64,000 nucleotides of DNA, taken from IMG/VR virus record IMGVR_UViG_3300042566_001359; one strand, 5' to 3'. Positions 55,964 to 63,837 of the stretch are shown here, one piece after another. The position numbers and the translations under genes were made by a program. Position 1 is the first letter of the stretch. Each line of letters begins with the position of its first letter. The stretch comes from a virus. Lineage: Duplodnaviria; Heunggongvirae; Uroviricota; Caudoviricetes; Demerecviridae. The notes below the pieces were generated by a model. The model was given only the letters and a program-made list of their open reading frames with translations, was not told the DNA's origin and did not search any database.

Positions 55964-56055
55964 TGGCGGGTGGCAGAGGAGTCGAACCCCATCCCGTTTC
56001 CGAGAACCTGGTTTTCAAGGCCAGTCGCAGGACCAACCCCGCTGCATTACCACCC
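55964..56055 (-). tRNA. tRNA-Ser (TGA), type II with long variable arm
   Basis: anticodon arm CUGGC-CUUGAAA-ACCAG resembles E. coli tRNA-Ser(UGA); variable hairpin UCUCG-GAAA-CGGGA; encoded CCA. Confidence 0.75.
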
Positions 56056-56060
56056 ACTGT

Positions 56061-56654
56061 TTATTCTTTGGCTGCGTCAGTTTCCTGTGCGCGAGCTGCC
56101 TGCAACTTTTCCAGTCGCTGTGCAACTTCGTCACTGGTCATCCAAATGTCTTTGTTGTGCAACATGCTGGAAATTTCTTCACTGGTTAAAAAGTCTTTGT
56201 ATACCGCACTCATAAAGTTTTCAGACCAACGACGTTCAAATTGCAGTTGATCGTACATTTCACCGCCTTTGCCAAATGTTCCAGCACTATAGTTGTGAAA
56301 CATAAAAAGACTGTGCGGTGTGATTTCGTGTGCATGACCGTGTAAGAAGATCATGGTGGCTGCACTCATGCAAGCGCCTTCAACACTGGTAACAATAGTT
56401 GCTTCTGTGTCCGACATTACTCGCAAGAACTGTAGTGTGGTATACAGGTCACCACCAGGCGAGTTGATATAAATACGAATAGTATCTACTTCGGATGCAT
56501 TGCGAATGCAATCAAACCACTCAATGTATTCTTCAGCATCTAGCACAGGGCCGCTTAGGTAAAACTCATGAAGCTGTGCAACTGGCTTTGAAAAGCTATT
56601 TGTGTACTTTTCAGGTTGAAACAATTTAGGGTCGAGATAATTGTCTTTGTTCAT
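56061..56654 (-). CDS. ClpP-like serine protease
   Basis: INSPGG motif, Ser in GACMSAA, His in FMFHN; 197 aa. Confidence 0.75.
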   Translation of the reverse strand: MNKDNYLDPKLFQPEKYTNSFSKPVAQLHEFYLSGPVLDAEEYIEWFDCIRNASEVDTIRIYINSPGGDLYTTLQFLRVMSDTEATIVTSVEGACMSAATMIFLHGHAHEITPHSLFMFHNYSAGTFGKGGEMYDQLQFERRWSENFMSAVYKDFLTSEEISSMLHNKDIWMTSDEVAQRLEKLQAARAQETDAAKE

Positions 56655-56669
56655 GCGTTCCTTTAATAT

Positions 56670-56742
56670 AATTAAGCACTCTAGCTAGCCGTGGAGCCCT
56701 TGCTGTTATGCGCGGTGGGGTTTTAACCCAAAAGTGCTTAAT
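56670..56742. repeat. Perfect 12-bp inverted repeat TAATTAAGCACT...AGTGCTTAATTA directly upstream of ClpP-like gene
   Basis: direct reading. Confidence 0.8.
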
Positions 56743-57136
56743 TATATTTGCCAGCTTATTCTGTTACGAGGGAAGCCGAGCGAGAAACCCTAAGCAGTTT
56801 TTAAGCTGCTAGTGCGTACGTTTGATCGTTTGCGTTTATTTTTGTTTTGTGTCTGCGGCCAGGTAGAGCGTCTTTTTGTGCTATATGCACAACGACTACA
56901 CTTTGCCCCCAACCCTACGGCTTCTACATTGCCGAGTTGTCTACTTTGCTACTCTTAGCCCGGTCGATCCTGTGTCAGGCCCATCAAAAGCATACTACTA
57001 GCATATAAGCTAAAAGAGCCGATCCTTCCAACCGCTGTCGGCCACCCTTTGGGTAGGGTAATATACTTATGGTGGACCTGGCGGGCACTGCCCCCGCGTG
57101 TCGAACTCTTTTGGGTCTGCTTCATACAACCATATT

Positions 57137-57215
57137 TTAGCACACTAACGGACATGCGTCGTAACCACTTTCTAAGCCTGTGCACAGGCAGTGGGCTTCT
57201 AGTATGCTAAAATAT
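57137..57215. repeat. Inverted-repeat hairpin element A1 (CCATATTTTAGCACACTAAC...50 nt...TAGTATGCTAAAATATGG) abutting tRNA-Thr CCA end; spacer contains palindrome GCCTGTGCACAGGC
   Basis: direct reading; arm sequence ~85% identical to element at 63522..63632. Confidence 0.8.
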
Positions 57216-57290
57216 GGTGCCGGTTGCATGAATCGAACACGCGACCTTCTCGTTACAAGGGAGTTGCTCTACCAACTGAGCTAAACCGGC
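57215..57290 (-). tRNA. tRNA-Thr (TGT), weak anticodon stem
   Basis: perfect acceptor, D and T arms; anticodon loop CUUGUAA closed by only 3 bp. Confidence 0.65.
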
Positions 57291-57327
57291 ATTAATTGAC
57301 TATTTATTCCGCCGCCCGTCAATTAAG

Positions 57328-57404
57328 GGAACTACTGGAGTCGGTGACAGGATTCGAACCTGCATAATACGGATTTGCAATCCGTGGCCTAGCCGTTCAG
57401 CTAC
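57328..57404 (-). tRNA. tRNA-Cys (GCA)
   Basis: ACGGA-UUGCAAA-UCCGU anticodon arm, perfect acceptor, encoded CCA. Confidence 0.8.
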
Positions 57405-57413
57405 ACACCGACA

Positions 57414-57617
57414 TTAAATTTGTTGAGTACTTATACAAGTCTCAAAACCGTTCCACAGTCGCTCAAACTTCATTTGATACATTTGCTTGAGTCCGATCAA
57501 GTAGTTCATACGTTGATCTTCGTCCATGTTGTCATACATATCTAGATACAACTGAATGTCGTCAGTTACATTCCAGCATTGCATGATATTTTGTTCTAGG
57601 TCAAAGCGATCGCTCAT
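57414..57617 (-). CDS. Hypothetical small protein
   Basis: 67 aa. Confidence 0.4.
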   Translation of the reverse strand: MSDRFDLEQNIMQCWNVTDDIQLYLDMYDNMDEDQRMNYLIGLKQMYQMKFERLWNGFETCISTQQI

Positions 57618-57618
57618 T

Positions 57619-58146
57619 TTAAGCCAATATAAATTTTAAACGGTCAGCAGCATAGCTTGCTGCAAAAGCATTTGGTTTTACTTGAGCATCTACGTTACAA
57701 GTGCCCTTGATATAACCAATAGCCTGCTGCACAACACAGCTAGAGCCGTACAGTAGGTTTGGGTTAATATCCAAGTGAACTTCAACGTGACGATCTTGTA
57801 ACACATCACTTAGTTCATGAAATAGGTCCGAAACCTTGTAAACTTCTTGCATTAACCTGAGTGCGGGTTTAGATACACGTTGATCAAAGTCGCGTTCACG
57901 ACTAATGCTACCAAAAATTTTGCAACCGTGATTGCCGTCAATGTGTACTACAACTGCTAAGGTATAGTCAGCGTGCCATACACCATTAACTTTAACACGT
58001 TCGCTATCCGCACCAAGATAAACCTTTGTTTCTGCGCTCTGTGCTTGAATGAAGTCTTTGACTTCTTGTAAGTTAAATTCGTGCATAGTTGTGGTTGTGT
58101 AAAGTATATTATGGTAGGCCCTGAGAGAATCAAACTCCCACTTCAA
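57619..58146 (-). CDS. Hypothetical protein
   Basis: 175 aa. Confidence 0.5.
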   Translation of the reverse strand: MKWEFDSLRAYHNILYTTTTMHEFNLQEVKDFIQAQSAETKVYLGADSERVKVNGVWHADYTLAVVVHIDGNHGCKIFGSISRERDFDQRVSKPALRLMQEVYKVSDLFHELSDVLQDRHVEVHLDINPNLLYGSSCVVQQAIGYIKGTCNVDAQVKPNAFAASYAADRLKFILA

Positions 58147-58168
58147 CGTTCGTAGCGTTGTGTAATAT

Positions 58169-58762
58169 TCATTTTACTAAAGGCCTATTGTCTAGTTCTA
58201 CGGCAATATCTAAAAATATCTTATCACTATTTATTCTGTGAATGTACGCATGGTGTGTAGGACATAAATATACTAAGTTAGATAGGTCATTATTATACCT
58301 ATTCTCATCTATATGATGTACGTCTAGTATTAGGTTTTCTTCACATGAACAGCATTTAATTTTAAGATCGTTGTCTTTATAAAATCTATTTAAATACTCT
58401 ACGTAGCTATAGCTTCCGTCTTTCCTGTTTTTTGCCCCTTGAGTATGAGCAAAAAACTTATTACCACAGTTATAAGAGCATGTAGTCGGCTCTTTACCAG
58501 AAGATAAAAACTCAAATTCATTGTTACACTGTGGGCAAACTTTACTAATTAATTTAGCAGGCTCTTTGCCGTTAGCTGTAAAGTGAGAAGTACTAATATT
58601 GTGTAAAAGACAATAGTCTTTTATCATCTTACCGTACCTGTAGTTTTTGGAATAACCTAATGCTTGTGCAACTATTACGGCAGCGTGAGCGTTAGATATT
58701 AGTTCTAGTAGTTCTCCAGATTTATGGCTATCTTCTAAAACTTTTAAAAATGTTGTTGACAT
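58169..58762 (-). CDS. HNH homing endonuclease
   Basis: DVHHIDENRYNNDLSNLVYLCPTHHAYIH HNH motif plus Cys4 zinc ribbon. Confidence 0.8.
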   Translation of the reverse strand: MSTTFLKVLEDSHKSGELLELISNAHAAVIVAQALGYSKNYRYGKMIKDYCLLHNISTSHFTANGKEPAKLISKVCPQCNNEFEFLSSGKEPTTCSYNCGNKFFAHTQGAKNRKDGSYSYVEYLNRFYKDNDLKIKCCSCEENLILDVHHIDENRYNNDLSNLVYLCPTHHAYIHRINSDKIFLDIAVELDNRPLVK

Positions 58763-58840
58763 AAACTTTCCTATGTATAAGCTATATTATACAATAAAAG
58801 CATTTAAAAGTCAATCGAAAATTTTTTGAACTACCAAAAT

Positions 58841-58914
58841 TGGCAGAGGATAGAAGAATCGAACTTCTGACAACGGAATCAAAATCCGTGGTTATACCAT
58901 TTAACTAATCCCCA
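58841..58914 (-). tRNA. tRNA-Gln (TTG)
   Basis: ACGGA-UUUUGAU-UCCGU; D-stem GUUA/UAAC; U1-U72 terminal mismatch. Confidence 0.7.
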
Positions 58915-58922
58915 ACAAAACT

Positions 58923-58996
58923 GGCTCCACAGGCAGGGATCGAACCTACGACCAATTGATTAACAGTCAACTGCACTACCGCTGTGCTACTGTGGA
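58923..58996 (-). tRNA. tRNA-Asn (GTT)
   Basis: GUUGA-CUGUUAA-UCAAU, T-loop UUCGAUC, encoded CCA. Confidence 0.85.
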
Positions 58997-59000
58997 ATAC

Positions 59001-59092
59001 TTAATACTAGCGCCCGGTACGCCATCCCCGAGTGAGCTTCAGTGGCAGAGAAGGATGCCACTTACACACTATAGCGCATTCTCGCTAGTATT
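59001..59092. repeat. Perfect 12-bp inverted repeat TTAATACTAGCG...CGCTAGTATTAA enclosing 68 nt, between tRNA-Asn and tRNA-Asp
   Basis: direct reading. Confidence 0.8.
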
Positions 59093-59188
59093 AAATATGC
59101 TGCTTACGATATACAGCGTGACATTGTCGTAGTCACCGATTGGATTACGGACGCTCTAACCGGAACGGCACGGACCTAAGGCAGGTTT

Positions 59189-59263
59189 TGGCGGTCTAGA
59201 GGGGTAACGATCCCCTTCTACAGCAGTGACAGTGCTGTGTGCGTCCATGAACACTTCTAAACC
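59189..59263 (-). tRNA. tRNA-Asp (GTC)
   Basis: CAGCA-CUGUCAC-UGCUG, T-arm AGGGG-AUCGUUA-CCCCU, acceptor GGUUUAG/CUAGACC, encoded CCA. Confidence 0.8.
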
Positions 59264-59268
59264 ATATT

Positions 59269-59353
59269 TGGTACCCCCACCCGGACTCGAACCGGGAAGC
59301 CGAAGCGAGGCATTTTAAGTGCCTTGTGTTTACCAGGATTTCACCATAGGGGC
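59269..59353 (-). tRNA. tRNA-Leu (TAA), type II
   Basis: AGGCA-CUUAAAA-UGCCU; variable hairpin GC-UUCG-GC; encoded CCA. Confidence 0.8.
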
Positions 59354-59358
59354 ATATT

Positions 59359-59444
59359 TGGTGGAGAAGGAGGGGATCGAACCCACTTGCCTCTTGAGGC
59401 CACGGATTTACAATCCGCTGTCCTACCATTAGAACATCTTCTCC
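59359..59444 (-). tRNA. tRNA-Tyr (GTA), type II
   Basis: GCGGA-UUGUAAA-UCCGU; long variable arm; perfect acceptor GGAGAAG; encoded CCA. Confidence 0.8.
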
Positions 59445-59495
59445 GTTTAAAGAATAATTATACCGCAAATAGCAAATCACGGCAAATCTAAATTT

Positions 59496-59570
59496 TGGCA
59501 CCCCTCCAGGGACTCGAACCCTGACCAACGGTTTTGGAGACCGCGATGCTGCCAATTACACCAAAGAGAT
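59496..59570 (-). tRNA. tRNA-Trp (CCA)
   Basis: GCGGU-CUCCAAA-ACCGU as in E. coli tRNA-Trp; acceptor with three G-U pairs. Confidence 0.75.
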
Positions 59571-59595
59571 AAAATGCTTGGAATTATGCGTTACA

Positions 59596-59700
59596 GAGTT
59601 TTGTCGGGCTTTCACACCCGGTGCCATACCACTTGGCGAATTTCCCAATGGGAGATAAAAGAATCGAACTTTTGATGAAACTGTAACTATCGCCAAAGCA
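59596..59700 (-). ncRNA. tRNA-like module (perfect T-arm AAAAG-UUCGAUU-CUUUU and acceptor-like helix UUGGCGA/UCGCCAA enclosing an extra hairpin); candidate Y-RNA-like / Ro60-associated RNA
   Basis: manual folding; no anticodon arm; lies 250-350 nt 3' of the Ro60 homologue on the same strand. Confidence 0.35.
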
Positions 59701-59943
59701 ATAATAATAAAAAACCTTAGAACAACTATTGCAGCGATTTGGTTAGATTAGAAGTCTAGAAGTAACTGCAAAAAACACTAAAGGCTTAGAATAAGACTAG
59801 AAAAAGCAACGCGGGTATTTGTTTTTCAAACCATATTGAGAAGTAACCGCATCTAGCACTAAGTCCTATTCTAAGCCTTCGCTTAGAGCCCCACTCTCTC
59901 GCTCTGACCGGCTGGCTACGGTTCCTAGCGTGGGTTAGTATTA

Positions 59944-61320
59944 TTAAAGCACTTCTGCTTCGAGGGCTTGAATGTAATCAATCACAGCTTCGGAGAAACC
60001 AGTAATGGTTTCCCACTCAGCACTGTTGATGCCATTCTGATAAGAACCAACGTTCAGGATGTAGTTTTTGTCACGGGACAAACGCTTGGCTTTGTGAGGT
60101 TCGAAACCTCGGCCACCTGTGTCTTGTTCATCTGTAAACACGATTACTCGGTCTACAAAATTATCATGTTCTTGGCTGGCGATATAGTCCATAGCTTGCA
60201 CTAAGAAGATACCGCCACCGCCGATACGACGGCCGACCTCTGCACTGCGGATGTAGTCGCTGAGTGCAAAACCACGTCGATTTGGAATCAACATAGTTGC
60301 ATGTTTGCGAGTACCATCATTACCGGCTGTTGCGTAGATAACTACTTCTTCGCAGATTTCTCGTGCCAAGATAGCCAGTGAACAAGCAGCATCAAGACGA
60401 GAAATCTCGCTTTTAGCGCTTATTGTTTGCCCCATAGAGCCGCTAGTGTCAACCACCAAAACTGTACGTCCTGGTAGTTTAGCTTGTGTTGACAAGCTTG
60501 CTAGCATCATGCGCTCAAGCATACCCTCAAATTGAGGGACTTGACGGGCCGCAGAAATGTACCGGAAAGGCAACACTTTTGAAGCGTCAATGGTTTTTGA
60601 GTAAGCCTCAATCTCGGACTGAGAAATACCTGCTTGAGTCATGTTACGCAAGTTACGTAAGAATGCTAGTGCACCCAATTTGTTTTCACGCATAAGACGT
60701 GAGAATGTTTCAAGCTTATCAGCGCCCGCACTTAGTTGAGTTTCCCAGGTATCTGGAGTTTCCAACTTGTCTTCAGCAATTCGTTTGAATAGCTCGGCTT
60801 GCACAGCCGTTTGCGGTTTAGGGTGGCTCAGGAACATAACATCACGCAAGCGAATCGCTGCTGAGTTTTTGTCCCACTTGGCCAGCTGATACTCGCTGAA
60901 CTTGTTAAAACAAGCAGCAAGACCACGTTTAACCTGATTGCTCAGGGCTGACTTGCCGTCTTTCCAGTAAATGCTCAGGAATTCAGACATTTCGTCTGGA
61001 CGCTGAATAACACTGGTAAGGGCATTTGCTTGTAGTTTACCGTGACGTGCGAGTTCACGAACAAGCAGCAGAGGAACGTGACGAAGTTTGAACTTAGTAC
61101 GAGCCTCTAGTGCTAGTGCGGCAACCCGATCAGGGTTCACACTAGCTACCACGCTTTTAATCAGTTCAGCATGGCTTTTTCCATCAACATAAAACTGGTC
61201 TTCCCACAGCATTGCTGCCAGGGTCAAGCGACGCAGTTGTCGTTCTGGATTAATAGTGCGTACTGGAGTACCAACACTGTTAACAGTCATTGAAGCGGAT
61301 TTGCGATTAATCGCGGACAT
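59944..61320 (-). CDS. rsr: Ro60-like TROVE-domain protein with C-terminal von Willebrand A domain (Rsr homologue)
   Basis: 458 aa; N-terminal region with TROVE-like pattern (R.L...FY.DG...RTKFKLRHVPLLLVRELA); C-terminal MIDAS motif LVVDTSGSM; RBS AAGGA 8 nt upstream. Confidence 0.7.
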   Translation of the reverse strand: MSAINRKSASMTVNSVGTPVRTINPERQLRRLTLAAMLWEDQFYVDGKSHAELIKSVVASVNPDRVAALALEARTKFKLRHVPLLLVRELARHGKLQANALTSVIQRPDEMSEFLSIYWKDGKSALSNQVKRGLAACFNKFSEYQLAKWDKNSAAIRLRDVMFLSHPKPQTAVQAELFKRIAEDKLETPDTWETQLSAGADKLETFSRLMRENKLGALAFLRNLRNMTQAGISQSEIEAYSKTIDASKVLPFRYISAARQVPQFEGMLERMMLASLSTQAKLPGRTVLVVDTSGSMGQTISAKSEISRLDAACSLAILAREICEEVVIYATAGNDGTRKHATMLIPNRRGFALSDYIRSAEVGRRIGGGGIFLVQAMDYIASQEHDNFVDRVIVFTDEQDTGGRGFEPHKAKRLSRDKNYILNVGSYQNGINSAEWETITGFSEAVIDYIQALEAEVL

Positions 61321-61349
61321 GGATTTTTCCTTGTAAATAAGTAAGAACT

Positions 61350-61450
61350 AGGCGAAACAGAGATTTTAGCGCTCTACCAACTGAGCTACTCGACACACTA
61401 AAGTGCCAGAGGATGGACTCGAACCACCGACCTCTCGTTTAACAGACGAA
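61350..61450 (-). ncRNA. Circularly permuted tRNA-like element (T-arm, loop-closed acceptor hairpin, D-arm) flanked by bulged helix; candidate YrlA-type Y RNA immediately 5' of rsr
   Basis: minus-strand order: AAACGAGAGG / GGUGG-UUCGAGU-CCAUC / CUCUGGCAC-UUUAGU-GUGUCGAGU / GCUC-AGUUGGUA-GAGC / CUCU(U)GUUU pairing back to the 5' strand. Confidence 0.5.
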
Positions 61451-61705
61451 GTAACTGTTTCTTTCACTATACCTAAATTAAACACACTGGCTAAGAATCT
61501 GCGAAAGCAGTTCTTGGAATTGTTTAGCGTCTACATCGCCTAAGACGTTTGCACGGTTTAAAGTGTGTGGCTACCACAATTTGTGTGCCACAAGGGCATA
61601 CAGCTTTAGTATGAAGTAACTGACTTCTATCACTATAGCCAAAGTGTTTAATTTAAGTATAAATTATATCAAATATAACTTACACTGGCAAGTTTGTATT
61701 TTTAG

Positions 61706-61780
61706 TGGTGGACATAGCAGGATTCGAACCGGCGACCTAGGCCGTATGAAGACCGTGCACTACCACTGTGCTATATGTCC
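61706..61780 (-). tRNA. tRNA-Met/Ile2 (CAT), second copy
   Basis: acceptor GGACAUA/UAUGUCC perfect; loop UUCAUAC; T-loop UUCGAAU; encoded CCA. Confidence 0.75.
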
Positions 61781-62167
61781 AGGTGCCGGTTACATTCTCC
61801 GGCGGCACATTTCGTTGTGTCTGAAGACATTGACGCTGTTTAAAGTCCGCAAGGGGGCATAGTCTGTAGCCATTAGGTAAACAGATACCTTTACTTGTGT
61901 GTTATTTTTGTGTCAGGAAACATCAAACCCCGTGAGAGCAGCCCATCTTGTTTTCGCTTCAGCGGACGCAGGGTGGTCAATATACTTACCACTGATTACA
62001 AGCCTGCAAATGACAATGTAGCGTGGTGCTTATATCCACACATAGACGGGATACACCGGCGAGTTTCCTCAGATAAGCAATCGTATCTATTGTCAAAAAT
62101 ATGGTGGCGAGCCAATGCCAGGTTTACCAGCTCACTATGCGGCTGCAGAAGTGCTGGAGGGCTAATT

Positions 62168-62238
62168 TGGTTGCGGGGGAAGGACTCGAACCTTCTAAGC
62201 GGAGCTTATGAGACTTGCTTCTACCCTGACTCCCCGCG
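62168..62238 (-). pseudogene. Degenerate tRNA-like gene (intact acceptor and T-arm, no canonical D / anticodon arms; CAU-containing loop)
   Basis: GAAGG-UUCGAGU-CCUUC T-arm and CGCGGGG/CCCCGCA acceptor with CCA, but only 36 nt between acceptor and T-arm. Confidence 0.4.
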
Positions 62239-62244
62239 ATATTT

Positions 62245-62399
62245 TAGTAGTAGCCGTGGAATTCGTTTTTGTAACGAAACCAGGTACGCTCTAGCTCTTT
62301 TAACTGTGACCAAGTTTGTGGATTGTTGTCGGTGACAAAATCTTCAAAGCTATAAGGTTGCAGAGCTTTTTGTAGCTGAGCCAGTAAATCACTTAGCAT
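62245..62399 (-). CDS. Small hypothetical protein (51 aa, below ORF-track threshold)
   Basis: my own translation MLSDLLAQLQKALQPYSFEDFVTDNNPQTWSQLKELERTWFRYKNEFHGYY. Confidence 0.25.
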
Positions 62400-62664
62400 T
62401 CACAAACTCATAGAATTGCTTTGATTTGGCCAGTACTTCTCCAAAGTCAAAAGGCTTGGGCATAAACTTGGCAATCATTTCGGAAGTGTTTTGACCTTTG
62501 CTGGCCAGACTTTCTTGCATTTCGGTAATGAACTCCATGTTGGAGGCGTACTCAGCTTGCATTAGCTCTGCGGTCATTTTCAAGATTTCAAGACGAATCT
62601 CAAAAGGTGATTTATTACTCATTGTAGTTCCTGTGTTGTGATGTGTAAGGTGTAGGCTTTTCAC
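62389..62664 (-). CDS. Hypothetical protein
   Basis: 91-aa ORF. Confidence 0.45.
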   Translation of the reverse strand: MKSLHLTHHNTGTTMSNKSPFEIRLEILKMTAELMQAEYASNMEFITEMQESLASKGQNTSEMIAKFMPKPFDFGEVLAKSKQFYEFVNAK

Positions 62665-62715
62665 CTACTTGGAGCGTTATTTCAGCTCATGTTTGGTACT
62701 GAGGGAGGAAGTGTT

Positions 62716-62789
62716 TGGTACCCAGTAGAGGTATCGATCCTCTGATTAACGCTTATCAAGCGTTTGTTATACCATTTAACTAACCGGGC
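62716..62789 (-). tRNA. tRNA-Ile (GAT)
   Basis: AACGC-UUGAUAA-GCGUU; encoded CCA. Confidence 0.8.
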
Positions 62790-62794
62790 GTATT

Positions 62795-62869
62795 TGGTAC
62801 TCCGAACGGGTTTCGATCCCGCTTCTCCAACTTGAAAGGCTGGCGTCCTAGCCACTAGACGACCGGAGT
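62795..62869 (-). tRNA. tRNA-Glu (TTC)
   Basis: CCAGC-CUUUCAA-GUUGG; T-loop AUCGAAA; encoded CCA. Confidence 0.8.
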
Positions 62870-62918
62870 GTTTGCGTAAAGATTAATTATACAGAGATTA
62901 GGCTGCGTGTTCAAGACA

Positions 62919-63048
62919 ATATTTATAAGTTTAACCCTAACCACGGGCGAGTATGAGTCGAGACGTGGGCCTATAGCAACTACTAGGTGGATTAGTCCGT
63001 TCGTAAAGGATTGGTAATCACTCCAACTTAGGGTCAAACTTATAAATA
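62919..63048. repeat. Inverted-repeat hairpin element B (ATATTTATAAGTTTAACCCTAA...88 nt...TTAGGGTCAAACTTATAAATA) abutting tRNA-Phe CCA end
   Basis: 21-bp arms with one mismatch. Confidence 0.75.
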
Positions 63049-63050
63049 CT

Positions 63051-63126
63051 TGGTGCAACCTACAGGAATCGAACCTGTTTCCATCGCTCTTCAGGCGACC
63101 GCTATGACCACATCAGCTAAAGTTGC
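63051..63126 (-). tRNA. tRNA-Phe (GAA)
   Basis: GUCGC-CUGAAGA-GCGAU; perfect acceptor GCAACUU; encoded CCA. Confidence 0.85.
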
Positions 63127-63129
63127 TTA

Positions 63130-63342
63130 AAATACTGGATTTTGTGCTTGCCATGTTTCTGCTTCATGACCATCACAGTCAATACGCCAAGGGCAAGTAC
63201 TGAGAATTTGTGTTGAGCAATCGTCGTTACCCCAGCATACTGGAGGTTGAGTACCACGCAAGACTTTAATCTGCTTGTGCACTAAGTCACGACGATTTGC
63301 TAGATTGGCTTCTTTGTCTAGCAATACTTGAATTTCAGTCAT
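63130..63342 (-). CDS. Small Cys-rich protein (start at internal Met to clear tRNA-His)
   Basis: CWGNDDCSTQILSTCPWRIDCDGHE. Confidence 0.35.
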
Positions 63343-63351
63343 ATAAACCTT

Positions 63352-63426
63352 TGGGCAGTCGTTACGGATTCGATCCGTTCCTACGAGTTTCACAGACTCG
63401 GGTGCTTCCACTACACTAAACGCTGC
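63352..63426 (-). tRNA. tRNA-His (GTG)
   Basis: CGAGU-CUGUGAA-ACUCG; 5' G pairing with C before CCA (G-1-like); bulged A in acceptor. Confidence 0.75.
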
Positions 63427-63431
63427 ATATT

Positions 63432-63518
63432 TGGCGGGAGATACAGGAATCGAACCTGTCAGCCTATTTCTAAACGAAGGCTTAGCAAGCCTCTGTTGCA
63501 CCTTGCAACACATCTCCC
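63432..63518 (-). tRNA. tRNA-Ser (GCT), type II
   Basis: GAGGC-UUGCUAA-GCCUU; long variable arm; acceptor GGGAGAU; encoded CCA. Confidence 0.8.
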
Positions 63519-63521
63519 AGT

Positions 63522-63632
63522 ACCATATTTGAGCATACTAACATCCACTTTTCGAACTTGTACTTTGTTCGCGAATACGTGTAGTCTTGCAAAACCAGTG
63601 GTTGAACGCCAACTGTTAATATGCTCAAATAT
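63522..63632. repeat. Inverted-repeat hairpin element A2 (CCATATTTGAGCATACTAAC...70 nt...GTTAATATGCTCAAATATGG) between tRNA-Ser(GCT) and tRNA-Lys-like
   Basis: 20-bp arms, 1 mismatch; spacer has TTCGCGAA palindrome. Confidence 0.8.
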
Positions 63633-63635
63633 GGT

Positions 63636-63704
63636 AGGACTGAAGGGTAACGATCCCTTTTCTACTGGTTAAAAGCCAGTTGCTTCACCTTAAAGCTTCA
63701 ATCC
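63636..63704 (-). tRNA. tRNA-Lys (TTT)-like, short and irregular (possible pseudogene)
   Basis: ACUGG-CUUUUAA-CCAGU anticodon arm, AGGG-AUCGUUA-CCCU T-arm, D-stem GCUU/AAGC, acceptor closes only with 1-nt register shift. Confidence 0.5.
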
Positions 63705-63837
63705 CATTAACCGCCCCAACCTTCTCGGTTAAGTTTTCCGCGCAATTGCTTGTGCGATTTTTTATGAGAACCACTGCCGCCACGCTTCATCAAAGCTAAG
63801 GCTACGTGATTCCTAGGTTTTCGTGTTTTCATAATAA

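What the first reader, a model, noticed from the sequence alone, without database searches (positions are those of the whole stretch)
57137..63632. Family of inverted-repeat hairpin elements placed exactly at tRNA 3' (CCA) ends
Three elements abut a tRNA 3' end on the transcribed minus strand:
- A1 at 57137..57215, abutting the tRNA-Thr CCA.
- A2 at 63522..63632, just 3' of the tRNA-Lys-like gene (its CCA triplet is the last three arm bases) and a few nt 5' of tRNA-Ser(GCT).
- B at 62919..63048, ending two nt from the tRNA-Phe CCA (AAATACT-TGG).

Each has 20-21-bp arms enclosing a 50-90-nt spacer with an internal palindrome. A1 and A2 arms are ~85% identical (CCATATTT[T/G]AGCA[C/T]ACTAAC). B is a different sequence with the same architecture and the same ATATTT arm start.

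This looks like either dedicated RNase III/RNase E processing hairpins separating tRNAs in the polycistronic transcript, or a small MITE-like mobile element that targets tRNA 3' ends. Neither is annotated in a standard way.
Basis: seen in the sequence. Interest (0 to 1): 0.6.

Follow-up and report, generated by a model that had tools for sequence, protein, structure and literature searches.

The report
Long-stem RNA spacers at phage tRNA ends
In the tRNA cluster of an uncultured T5-like phage, a few specific tRNAs are followed by a conserved RNA hairpin with a ~20-bp stem enclosing a small folded RNA; these most likely act as cutting sites for the host's double-strand RNase and release small stable RNAs like the unexplained "stable RNAs" of phage T5.

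Summary
The corrected coordinates are A1 57129-57218, A2 63521-63636 and B 62918-63050, all on the minus strand. All three are 20-27-bp stems, counting G.U pairs, around 50-83-nt folded interiors. A1 and A2 start at the discriminator/CCA of tRNA-Thr and tRNA-Lys. B starts 1 nt after the tRNA-Phe CCA.

- The window holds seven such stems in 7 kb.
- Thirteen related uncultured T5-like phage loci carry them at the same sites: Lys 12/12, Thr 6/6, Pro 8/9, Phe 7/12, and almost none at other tRNAs.

The structure is selected on the tRNA-sense strand, which points to RNA. Non-Watson-Crick arm positions are 70 G.U against 14 A.C. Arms and interiors also show compensatory changes.

A transposon-like (MITE) element is unlikely. 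There is no target duplication, no copy outside the tRNA cluster, and placement is site-specific.

The closest known case is phage T5 RNAIII. Its 20-bp stem also begins at an upstream CCA, and its annotated ends leave a 2-nt 3' overhang, as RNase III cuts do.

My best reading is RNase III-type processing stems that release small stable RNAs. Cleavage itself is inferred, not shown. Interiors are swapped between sites and phages, and this is the most novel aspect.

The parts
57129..57218 (-). Element A1. The 5' arm is 57199-57218 and begins at A73-C-C-A of the upstream tRNA. The interior is 57149-57198, with three small helices. The 3' arm is 57129-57148.
   Evidence: Inverted repeat (I13). Fold -40.2 kcal/mol, z = -5.1. 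The stem has 18 WC + 2 G.U pairs. Four homologous copies (WIN/L121, L060/L098, L118, L102) show 4 pairs with compensatory changes.
63521..63636 (-). Element A2. The 5' arm is 63610-63636 and includes U72 and the ACCA of tRNA-Lys. The interior is 63548-63609. The 3' arm is 63521-63547 and ends 2 nt before tRNA-Ser(GCU).
   Evidence: Inverted repeat (I2). Fold -42.6 kcal/mol, z = -5.2. The stem has 22 WC + 4 G.U + 1 mismatch. Orthologues in L061, L063 and L066 show 2 compensatory pairs.
62918..63050 (-). Element B. The 5' arm is 63026-63050 and starts 1 nt after the tRNA-Phe CCA. The interior is 62943-63025. The 3' arm is 62918-62942.
   Evidence: Inverted repeat (I7). Fold -44.4 kcal/mol, z = -5.4. 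Eight orthologues follow tRNA-Phe; the first 28 nt are invariant and the 3' arm varies only by G.U/G-C/U-A transitions.
57215..57290 (-). tRNA upstream of A1. It is tRNA-Thr(UGU)-like with a weak anticodon stem, and ARAGORN calls it Tyr(GTA).
   Evidence: 62 bits. Similar to phage tRNA-Thr genes. Orthologues are called Thr(tgt).
56801..57131 (-). Permuted (two-piece) tmRNA immediately downstream of A1. Its first helix, GGUUG, shares GGU with the end of the A1 3' arm.
   Evidence: Rfam RF04321, 91.3 bits against a gathering score of 47. The tag peptide ANDQTYALAA is read from the sequence.
63632..63705 (-). tRNA-Lys(UUU) upstream of A2.
   Evidence: 51 bits.
63432..63518 (-). tRNA-Ser(GCU) downstream of A2.
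63051..63126 (-). tRNA-Phe(GAA) upstream of B.
   Evidence: 59 bits.
62886..62914 (-). Sigma-70-like promoter (TTGAAC-17-TATAAT) directly downstream of B and upstream of tRNA-Glu. In relatives L061 and L066, B abuts tRNA-Glu directly, 4 and 0 nt away.
56665..56748 (-). Hairpin of the same build between the tmRNA 3' end and the ClpP-like ORF. Its arms are AUAUAAUUAAGCAC..., and its interior is homologous to metagenomic elements that carry CCAUAUUUUAGCAC arms.
   Evidence: I25; cluster 13; z = -3.4.
58995..59100 (-). Hairpin of the same build in the tRNA-Asp/tRNA-Asn spacer. Its 3' arm reaches the 5' end of tRNA-Asn.
   Evidence: z = -3.7; cluster 9, four phages.
59780..59880 (-). Hairpin of the same build just downstream of the Ro60 (TROVE) ORF.
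   Evidence: I19; z = -4.8; clusters 6 and 8.
61467..61662 (-). Hairpin of the same build: a 27-bp stem with a 142-nt interior. It lies between a strong promoter (61691-61663) and the YrlA-like RNA upstream of Ro60.
   Evidence: I1; z = -5.2; cluster 2, nine phages.

Best explanation
A1, A2 and B are transcribed spacer elements of the phage's tRNA/tmRNA cluster. Each is a long RNA stem of about two helical turns that closes a small folded RNA.

Shown here:
- The stems exist.
- They are conserved at specific tRNA 3' ends across a clade of uncultured T5-like phages.
- They are maintained by selection on the tRNA-sense strand.
- Their interiors are themselves structured.

Inferred mechanism:
1. 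In the polycistronic precursor, the near-perfect ~20-bp duplex is cut on both strands by the host's double-strand-specific RNase III. No phage-encoded RNase III was seen.
2. The cut separates the upstream tRNA from the downstream RNA (tmRNA, tRNA-Ser or tRNA-Glu).
3. The tRNA is left with a trailer of a few nucleotides, which 3' exonucleases trim back to the encoded CCA.
4. The downstream RNA is left with a short 5' leader. RNase P removes it where the downstream RNA is a tRNA.
5. The enclosed RNA is released as a stable hairpin with a ~10-12-bp terminal stem and a 2-nt 3' overhang, as in T5 RNAIII.

In A1 and A2 the stem pairs the tRNA's own N73-CCA, so the CCA end stays sequestered until the cut is made. 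Whether the released interiors have a function of their own is open.
For: Structure and chance:
- Folding z-scores are about -5.
- Seven stems of at least 18 bp lie in 7 kb of the window, against about three weaker ones in the other 57 kb.

Anchoring to tRNA ends:
- In the window plus 13 related loci, 43 of 258 tRNA 3' ends carry a stem of at least 18 bp starting at N73 to +2. Only 9 of 1290 random positions do (odds ratio 28, p = 1e-26).
- Stem lengths are bimodal: background 6-13, elements 18-27.

Site specificity: Lys 12/12, Thr 6/6, Pro 8/9, Phe 7/12, and almost none elsewhere.

Selection on the tRNA-sense strand:
- With strand-neutral detection, non-WC arm positions are 70 G.U, 14 A.C and 11 other (p = 4e-10).
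- Arm sequences differ between sites and phages while pairing is kept: 14 of 18 pairs show double changes (with an ascertainment caveat).
- Orthologous A1 arms show an A-U to U-A swap.

Interior structure: compensatory pairs occur in A1 (4), A2 (2) and B (2).

T5 analogue:
- RefSeq NC_005859 annotates RNAIII, RNAIV and RNA2H as stable RNAs inside the tRNA cluster.
- The full RNAIII stem is 20 bp. It starts at the discriminator of the upstream CCA-ended RNAI and ends at tRNA-His.
- The annotated RNAIII termini leave exactly a 2-nt 3' overhang. RNA2H and RNAIV ends also lie inside 17-22-bp stems.

Precedent: a review states that E. coli RNase III takes part in T4 tRNA maturation (PMC4810235).

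Established knowledge: bacterial RNase III cleaves RNA duplexes of about 20 bp, leaving 2-nt 3' overhangs.
Against: - No RNA-end data exist for this phage, so cleavage is inferred.
- The host is unknown, so RNase III sequence preferences could not be checked.
- The T5 termini are taken from the record's annotation. I could not trace the experiments behind them, and the RNAIV ends fit a 1-nt rather than a 2-nt overhang.
- Most tRNAs in the cluster are separated by only 5-8 nt and have no hairpin, so processing of the cluster does not generally need these stems.
- At the Lys site the interior ranges from 4 to 76 nt, whereas the B and post-Pro interiors are strongly conserved. One function may therefore not fit all elements.
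- The outer arm sequence (CCAUAUUU...) is conserved beyond what pairing alone needs, which could reflect a sequence-specific factor other than RNase III.
- The closest cultured relative, pVp-1, has no such stems.
Confidence: 0.55

Rival explanations
1. The main function lies in the enclosed small RNAs, for example regulators, decoys against host defences, or ligands of the phage's Ro60 protein. On this view the long stem only gives them stable ends and a way to be excised. This overlaps with the best explanation in mechanism but differs in what is selected.
For: - The interiors fold and show compensatory changes.
- The B interior and the post-Pro interior are conserved across phages whose Ro proteins are only 54-64% identical.
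- One interior family (cluster 1) is 99-100% identical between contigs whose flanks are 80-89% identical.
- That family recurs at post-Thr, post-Asp and post-Ser(UGA) sites.
- T5's counterparts accumulate as stable RNAs according to the record.
- A Ro60 gene and a YrlA-like RNA lie in the same cluster.
Against: - At the Lys and Thr sites the interior is replaced by unrelated sequences (at least 8 and at least 7 families) or nearly deleted (4 and 12 nt), while the stem is always kept.
- None of the seven window elements carries the Ro-binding motif GNCGAAN0-1G.
- Rfam YrlA does not match them.
- T5 has such RNAs but no Ro gene is annotated in the T5 stretch examined.
Confidence: 0.25
2. They are MITE-like mobile DNA elements with terminal inverted repeats that insert at tRNA 3' ends.
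For: - A family of similar inverted-repeat ends (CCATATTT...) encloses unrelated interiors.
- The same interior family occurs at different sites.
- There is presence/absence variation at the Phe site, 7 of 12 occupied.
- There is mosaicism. The window and L063 share a 100% identical tRNA-Thr but have unrelated interiors. The window and L060 have an 83% identical tRNA but a 90% identical interior.
Against: - There is no target-site duplication.
- All copies lie in the tRNA/tmRNA cluster and none in the other 57 kb of the window.
- Occupancy is fixed to a few syntenic sites, not spread over tRNA ends in general.
- Arm mismatches are strongly strand-asymmetric, 70 G.U against 14 A.C, which a DNA-level repeat does not predict.
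- The same interior occurs with different arms, so arms track the site more than the cargo.
- No transposase was noticed near the elements.
- Different upstream tRNAs next to identical elements can be explained by deletions within tRNA arrays of near-identical phages.
Confidence: 0.08
3. They are 3'-end protective or terminating structures that stop 3' exonucleases or RNA polymerase at the end of transcription sub-units.
For: - In the window B is followed at once by a promoter.
- The element at 56665-56748 sits where bacterial tmRNA genes have a terminator hairpin.
- Stable stems block 3' exonucleases (established knowledge).
Against: - No U-tract follows any of them and none is called terminator-like.
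- A1 and A2 are followed within 0-2 nt by another stable RNA gene with no promoter in between.
- In relatives B abuts tRNA-Glu directly.
- The stems are AU-rich and far longer than needed for a block.
Confidence: 0.07
4. They are DNA-level palindromes: protein operators, promoters or recombination sites. For example, the A1 3' arm reads TGCTAAAAT, an extended -10-like sequence upstream of the tmRNA.
For: - The outer arm sequence is conserved beyond pairing: CCATA is invariant in 46 arm pairs.
- TGCTAAAAT lies 4 nt upstream of the tmRNA's first helix at 57131 (seen in the sequence).
Against: - The A2 arm (TGCTCAAAT) lacks the key -10 bases.
- The strand asymmetry of mismatches points to one folded strand.
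- Compensatory changes keep pairing, not sequence.
- The scan found no promoter in the arms.
Confidence: 0.05

Closest known systems
Phage T5 'stable RNAs with unknown functions' in the tRNA gene region (RNAIII, RNAIV, RNA2H; RefSeq NC_005859, also annotated in DT57C and DT571/2)
   Same: - They lie in the tRNA cluster of a T5-like phage, on the tRNA-sense strand.
- They are 100-170-nt RNAs closed by pairing of their 5' and 3' ends around a branched interior.
- In the precursor the closing stem extends to 17-22 bp.
- The RNAIII stem starts at the discriminator/CCA of the upstream CCA-ended RNAI and ends at the 5' end of tRNA-His, which is the A1/A2 layout.
   Different: - There is no detectable sequence similarity. 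The T5 genomes are in the collection searched and gave no match.
- T5 has two or three such stems. This clade has many per genome, at fixed tRNA sites, with a shared CCAUAU arm start and exchangeable interiors.
- Stability of the RNAs is recorded for T5 and untested here.
RNase III processing stems flanking stable RNAs (rRNA operon stems, T7 early-transcript sites, the T4 tRNA precursor)
   Same: - A ~20-bp or longer duplex lies in a polycistronic precursor next to stable RNA genes.
- RNase III is reported to take part in T4 tRNA maturation (PMC4810235).
- The expected product geometry matches the annotated RNAIII ends of T5.
   Different: - The rRNA stems pair sequences thousands of nucleotides apart and enclose the functional RNA. 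Here the stems are local hairpins in spacers.
- In A1 and A2 the stems include the tRNA's own CCA.
- Cleavage is not demonstrated.
Bacterial and phage Y RNAs (YrlA/YrlB), ligands of Ro60/Rsr
   Same: - They are small RNAs with a long stem formed by the 5' and 3' ends.
- They are encoded within a few kb of a Ro60 gene on the same strand (PMC4201824). A Ro60 (TROVE) ORF is present at 59944-61320.
   Different: - A1, A2 and B lack the GNCGAAN0-1G motif and a T-arm/D-arm tRNA-like domain.
- The window's YrlA-like candidate is a separate locus at 61351-61461 (27 bits, below Rfam's threshold).
MITEs and other small inverted-repeat mobile elements
   Same: Inverted-repeat ends enclose a short non-coding interior, and the elements form a family with several copies per genome.
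   Different: There is no target duplication and no dispersed copies. Placement is site-specific and syntenic, and selection is strand-specific at the RNA level.
Phage T4 species 1 and 2 RNAs (rnaC, rnaD) in the T4 tRNA cluster (recalled from memory, not checked here)
   Same: They are small stable RNAs of unknown function that are co-transcribed with phage tRNAs.

Membership tests
RNase III processing site | Near-perfect RNA duplex of about two helical turns (about 20 bp) in the transcript | tested here: met
   The stems are 20, 27 and 25 bp counting G.U pairs. Clade-wide lengths are 18-27 bp.
RNase III processing site | Staggered double-strand cleavage leaving 2-nt 3' overhangs, dependent on RNase III | not testable with these tools
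   This needs end mapping or an rnc mutant. The only indirect support is the annotated ends of T5 RNAIII.
RNase III processing site | No inhibitory (antideterminant) base pairs in the enzyme's recognition boxes | not tested
   The host, and hence the enzyme's preferences, are unknown. The stems are AU-rich.
T5-type stable RNAs of the tRNA region | Encoded inside the tRNA cluster of a T5-like phage, on the tRNA strand | tested here: met
   The gene set is T5-like. The elements lie between minus-strand tRNAs.
T5-type stable RNAs of the tRNA region | The 5' and 3' ends pair into a closing stem around a branched interior, and the stem is longer in the precursor than in the mature RNA | tested here: inconclusive
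   The architecture matches, but mature ends are unknown for the window's elements.
T5-type stable RNAs of the tRNA region | Sequence homology to T5 RNAIII, RNAIV or RNA2H | tested here: not met
   blastn of A1, A2 and B against 50,697 phage records, including T5, gave no match.
T5-type stable RNAs of the tRNA region | Accumulates as a stable small RNA in infected cells | not testable with these tools
   No expression data are available.
MITE-like mobile element | Terminal inverted repeats | tested here: met
MITE-like mobile element | Target-site duplication flanking the element | tested here: not met
   The flanks share no direct repeat, and CCA/TGG belong to the inverted repeat.
MITE-like mobile element | Dispersed copies in varied genomic contexts | tested here: not met
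   All copies are in the tRNA/tmRNA cluster. Occupancy is restricted to a few tRNA sites.
MITE-like mobile element | DNA-level repeat, so mismatches should be symmetric between strands | tested here: not met
   70 G.U against 14 A.C, p = 4e-10.
Y RNA / YrlA | Encoded within about 4 kb of Ro60 on the same strand | tested here: met
   The Ro ORF is at 59944-61320(-). A1 is 2.7 kb downstream, and B and A2 are 1.6-2.3 kb upstream.
Y RNA / YrlA | GNCGAAN0-1G Ro-binding motif in the 5' strand of the stem | tested here: not met
   A regex search found no match in any of the seven elements. The motif is taken from PMC4201824.
Y RNA / YrlA | tRNA-like domain (T and D arms) or a match to Rfam RF02553 | tested here: not met
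   No YrlA match overlaps A1, A2 or B at E up to 5.
Intrinsic terminator | G+C-rich hairpin followed by a U-tract | tested here: not met
   No terminator-like site was found at the elements.

The most novel reading that the evidence does not exclude
The hairpins form a modular system. A few tRNA 3' ends carry conserved double-stranded 'sockets' anchored on or next to the CCA. These sockets host interchangeable small structured RNAs, which are swapped between sites and between phages by recombination in the arms. RNase III releases them as stable RNAs that act in host takeover, for example against tRNA-targeting defences or with the phage's Ro60 and tmRNA. This would give the 40-year-old T5 'stable RNAs of unknown function' a general logic.
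Probability: 0.2. Interest if true: 0.75.

Novelty: new variant of a known kind. Interest (0 to 1): 0.5.

Why it matters
Phage tRNA clusters are usually annotated as strings of tRNA genes with meaningless spacers. Here some spacers are as conserved as the tRNAs, and they are clearly selected as RNA.

If they are RNase III sites, they show how a phage organises maturation of a crowded tRNA/tmRNA/Y-RNA transcript, and how it produces extra small RNAs at no extra cost in promoters.

They also make the long-unexplained T5 stable RNAs (RNAIII, RNAIV, RNA2H) approachable. The architecture recurs in distant relatives, with many natural variants in the interior and a fixed stem. That is the kind of natural experiment that separates a 'processing signal' from a 'functional small RNA'.

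The practical consequence is that annotation pipelines miss these elements entirely. There were no Rfam hits.

Tried and rejected
- **Rfam:** scans at gathering and permissive thresholds gave no family for A1, A2 or B.
- **Deposited phage genomes:** blastn of the three elements against 50,697 records found nothing. A megablast of the whole region matched only tRNAs.
- **Literature:** eight searches found no description of CCA-anchored hairpins or of the T5 stable RNAs. Only the Y RNA paper and a review mentioning RNase III in T4 tRNA maturation were useful.
- **Terminator idea:** rejected, because there is no U-tract.
- **Promoter in the arms:** only the A1 arm resembles an extended -10, so it is not a family feature.
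- **Phage-encoded RNase III:** no signature motif in 1.23 Mb of window plus loci.
- **RNaseH-like ORF:** I tested whether the cluster-embedded ORF has a T5 counterpart in T5.069. It does not.
- **Architecture across Demerecviridae:** pVp-1 has none and T5 has two or three, so it is not general.
- **Covariation test of the T5 RNAIII stem:** not possible, because 283 genomes are at least 95.9% identical.
- **Near-identical elements behind different tRNAs:** these looked like transposition at first. They come from near-identical phage variants with deletions in the tRNA array, so they are not evidence for mobility.
- **Arm-only covariation count:** the sequences were selected for forming stems, so it is only supportive.

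Full report
**What the window is**

The window comes from an uncultured phage with a T5-like gene set.
- It has a split NAD-dependent ligase, an SbcC-like nuclease, DnaB- and D10-type helicases, ribonucleotide reductase and long tail fibres.
- Its family-A DNA polymerase is 50% identical to that of Vibrio phage pVp-1, a member of Demerecviridae.
- No deposited phage shares DNA with the 56.7-64 kb region apart from single tRNAs.

From 53.6 kb to the end, the minus strand carries at least 22 tRNA genes. The same stretch holds:
- a permuted two-piece tmRNA at 56801-57131 (RF04321, 91 bits);
- a Ro60/TROVE ORF at 59944-61320;
- a weak YrlA-like RNA at 61351-61461;
- an HNH endonuclease ORF and an RNaseH-like ORF.

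**Checking the observation**

All three inverted repeats are real. Read as minus-strand RNA with G.U pairs allowed:
- A1 is a 20-bp stem (57199-57218 with 57129-57148) around 50 nt.
- A2 is a 27-bp stem (63610-63636 with 63521-63547) around 62 nt.
- B is a 25-bp stem (63026-63050 with 62918-62942) around 83 nt.

Each folds about five standard deviations better than shuffled sequence. The A1 and A2 arms are 86-88% alike. The shared arm pattern occurs four times against 0.42 expected.

A1 begins at the discriminator base of a tRNA-Thr-like gene and ends against the first helix of the tmRNA. A2 begins inside the end of tRNA-Lys and stops 2 nt before tRNA-Ser. B starts 1 nt after the tRNA-Phe CCA.

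**The set is larger than reported**

Four more stems of the same build lie in the same 7 kb:
- 56665-56748, between the tmRNA and the next ORF;
- 58995-59100, which ends at tRNA-Asn;
- 59780-59880, just after Ro60;
- 61467-61662, between a strong promoter and the YrlA-like RNA.

The other 57 kb of the window has only about three weaker candidates.

**Relatives**

An exact search for the arm pattern in viral contigs found seven loci with inverted pairs. In each, the A1-type element follows tRNA-Thr, usually ahead of a tmRNA, and the A2-type element follows tRNA-Lys.

Fetching loci through the Ro60 protein gave 38 related loci. A clade (L057-L070) is syntenic with the window.

In the window plus 13 non-redundant clade loci:
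- 43 of 258 tRNA 3' ends carry a stem of at least 18 bp that starts between the discriminator and +2. Only 9 of 1290 random positions do (odds ratio 28, p = 1e-26).
- Stem lengths are bimodal, with background at 6-13 and the elements at 18-27.
- Occupancy is site-specific: Lys(UUU) 12/12, Thr(UGU) 6/6 plus five orthologues that ARAGORN calls Tyr, Pro(UGG) 8/9, Phe 7/12, and almost nothing at the other tRNAs.
- Elements that seemed far from any tRNA still follow a T-arm plus NCCA that ARAGORN had missed, for example a tRNA-Ser(UGA).

A gapped-pattern scan of metagenomes added 34 loci with the same arms.

**RNA or DNA?**

I re-detected the repeats with a strand-neutral rule. The non-Watson-Crick positions in the arms are 70 G.U on the tRNA-sense strand, 14 A.C and 11 other (p = 4e-10). 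A repeat that mattered only as DNA would not show this bias.

Arm sequences diverge widely between sites and phages while pairing is kept. Fourteen of 18 pairs show double changes. This set was selected for forming stems, so the count is supportive only.

The cleaner cases are orthologous sites:
- At the Lys site every phage has a stem, although the arms differ.
- Homologous copies of A1 show an A-U to U-A swap in the stem.

The interiors are also structured. A1 has four compensatory pairs among four distinct copies, A2 has two, and B has two. The first 28 nt of B are invariant in eight phages, and its 3' arm varies only through G.U, G-C and U-A transitions.

**Is it mobile?**

Some features look cassette-like.
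- The Thr site holds at least seven unrelated interior families and the Lys site at least eight, including near-empty hairpins of 4 and 12 nt.
- One interior family appears after Thr, Asp and Ser(UGA).
- The window shares a 100% identical tRNA-Thr with L063 but has an unrelated interior. It shares a 90% identical interior with L060, whose tRNA is only 83% identical.

Several features argue against a classical MITE.
- There is no target duplication.
- There is no copy outside the tRNA cluster.
- Arms track the site more than the cargo.
- The mismatch bias argues for RNA-level selection.
- Near-identical elements behind different tRNAs come from near-identical phage variants with deletions in the tRNA array.

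Recombination within conserved arms and tRNAs is a sufficient explanation. The region also holds homing-type HNH genes.

**The T5 analogue**

The T5 RefSeq record annotates eight 'stable RNAs' of unknown function in its tRNA region. RNAIII, RNAIV and RNA2H fold with their ends paired around a branched interior. In all three the stem continues beyond the annotated ends, to 17-22 bp.

The full RNAIII stem is GCCACAAUUGAAAAUUCGUA paired with UGCGAGUUUUCAAUUGUGGC.
- It begins at the discriminator of the CCA-ended RNAI and ends in the 5' end of tRNA-His, which is the A1/A2 layout.
- Counting from the sequence, the annotated RNAIII ends (5' at the ninth stem base, 3' six bases before the end of the stem) leave exactly a 2-nt 3' overhang, the geometry of RNase III products.
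- RNA2H fits this geometry as well, and RNAIV is off by one base.

RNAIII is at least 95.9% identical in 283 T5-like genomes, so its stem could not be tested by covariation. There is no sequence similarity between the T5 RNAs and A1, A2 or B. pVp-1 has no such stems, so the trait is patchy within the family.

**Mechanism**

Shown: conserved, site-specific, strand-specific RNA stems of about two helical turns, next to stable RNA genes, with structured interiors.

Inferred: host RNase III cuts the stems. No RNase III signature was found in 1.23 Mb of this phage and its relatives. Cutting would free the upstream tRNA with a short trailer, give the downstream RNA a short leader, and release the interior as a stable hairpin. 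RNase III is reported to take part in T4 tRNA maturation (PMC4810235).

Weak points:
- Most tRNAs in the cluster do without hairpins.
- The outer arm sequence is more conserved than pairing requires.
- Interior conservation ranges from none at the Lys site to strong in B.
- The T5 ends rest on a database annotation.

I put 0.55 on the RNase III processing and stable-RNA reading. I put about 0.25 on the view that the enclosed RNAs are the selected function. The MITE, terminator/protector and DNA-palindrome readings together get about 0.2.

**Comparison and novelty**

The elements work like T5 RNAIII and like RNase III processing stems. They cannot be filed as sequence homologues of the T5 RNAs. 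They fail the tests for Y RNAs, terminators and MITEs (see the membership table).

What is new:
- the systematic anchoring at the CCA of particular tRNAs;
- the number of such elements per genome;
- the exchange of interiors within conserved stems.

I rate this as a new variant of a known but poorly understood kind, of moderate interest.

Noticed in passing
window 56801-57131 (-): The phage encodes a permuted, two-piece tmRNA with tag peptide ANDQTYALAA. Rfam RF04321 scores it at 91 bits, and ARAGORN missed it in the window. Relatives carry orthologues with varied tags (ANDTQFALVA, ANDNVFALAA, ANESVYALAA and others). Some variants carry internal deletions of the tmRNA.
   Followed up: partly
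window 59944-61320 (-) and 61351-61461 (-): A Ro60/TROVE ORF of 458 aa sits inside the tRNA cluster. Just upstream is a YrlA-like RNA with T-arm, acceptor-like hairpin and D-arm in permuted order and a closing stem. It scores 27 bits, below Rfam's 69-bit threshold. Conserved long-stem elements flank the gene on both sides.
   Followed up: partly
window 57619-58086 (-): This ORF matches Pfam PF04308 'RNaseH_like' (YkuK family; E = 2e-17). It lies between tRNA-Arg(ACG) and tRNA-Cys. The same ~760-nt gap is present in all syntenic relatives. It is a candidate RNA-processing nuclease and has no homology to T5.069.
   Followed up: partly
window 57215-57290 (-): The tRNA-Thr(UGU)-like gene has a weakened anticodon stem (A27.A43 and C31.C39 mismatches by standard numbering), which makes ARAGORN call it Tyr(GTA). 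It is 100% identical in L063.
   Followed up: partly
window 55968-56055 (-): A tRNA-Ser(UGA)-like gene with a long variable arm was missed by ARAGORN (Rfam tRNA-Sec model, 35.9 bits, below threshold). In relatives it is followed by a 'GCCAUAAG...CUUAUGGC' hairpin. In the window it runs straight into an ORF start.
   Followed up: partly
window 63356-63424 (-), 62165-62252 (-), 59598-59705 (-): There are further tRNA-like sequences: one tRNA that only Rfam calls (37 bits); one with a T-arm and an ...CCCCCGCAACCA end that no tool calls; and one stretch with a T-arm-like hairpin followed by a D-arm-like sequence (permuted order). The last two do not fold better than shuffles.
   Followed up: partly
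window 58169-58762 (-) with promoter 58814-58786: An HNH endonuclease ORF with its own strong promoter is inserted between tRNA-Gln and tRNA-Arg, like the homing endonucleases in the T5 tRNA region.
   Followed up: no
L057 3368-3556, L059 2746-2935, L063 2593-2782, L067 720-909, L090 2257-2442 (outside the window's span): A ~190-nt structured RNA enclosed by a CCA-anchored stem follows tRNA-Pro(UGG) in most relatives. It is conserved even in L090, whose Ro protein is 54% identical. It occupies the position before tRNA-Leu(UAG)/Ala that RNA2H holds in T5.
   Followed up: no
L057 11608-11711, L061 9975-10080, L104 1974-2078, L111, L113, L117, L127: One interior family (CAACCUUAACUCCACGGUG...GCGAACGGGUCU...) is widespread in metagenomes and is found after Thr, Asp and Ser(UGA). 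It is 99-100% identical between contigs whose flanks are 80-89% identical. Some copies contain GGCGAACG, which fits the Ro-binding motif, but the motif is not conserved across the family.
   Followed up: partly
L060 879-1000: A CCA-anchored stem here encloses a tRNA-like sequence with D-arm-like and T-arm (GGTTCGAATCC) features and no CCA of its own. This suggests that some interiors derive from tRNA genes.
   Followed up: no
L095 (T5 NC_005859 30278-30397, 32826-32953): In T5 the annotated ends of RNAIII give exactly a 2-nt 3' overhang inside a 20-bp precursor stem that starts at the CCA of RNAI. The ends of RNAIV and RNA2H likewise lie inside 17-22-bp stems. The record's annotation does not mention this.
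   Followed up: yes
window 56061-56654 (-): A ClpP-like protease ORF (PF00574, E = 9e-13) lies directly downstream of the tmRNA and its hairpin. The pairing of a proteolysis-tagging RNA with a protease gene is suggestive.
   Followed up: no
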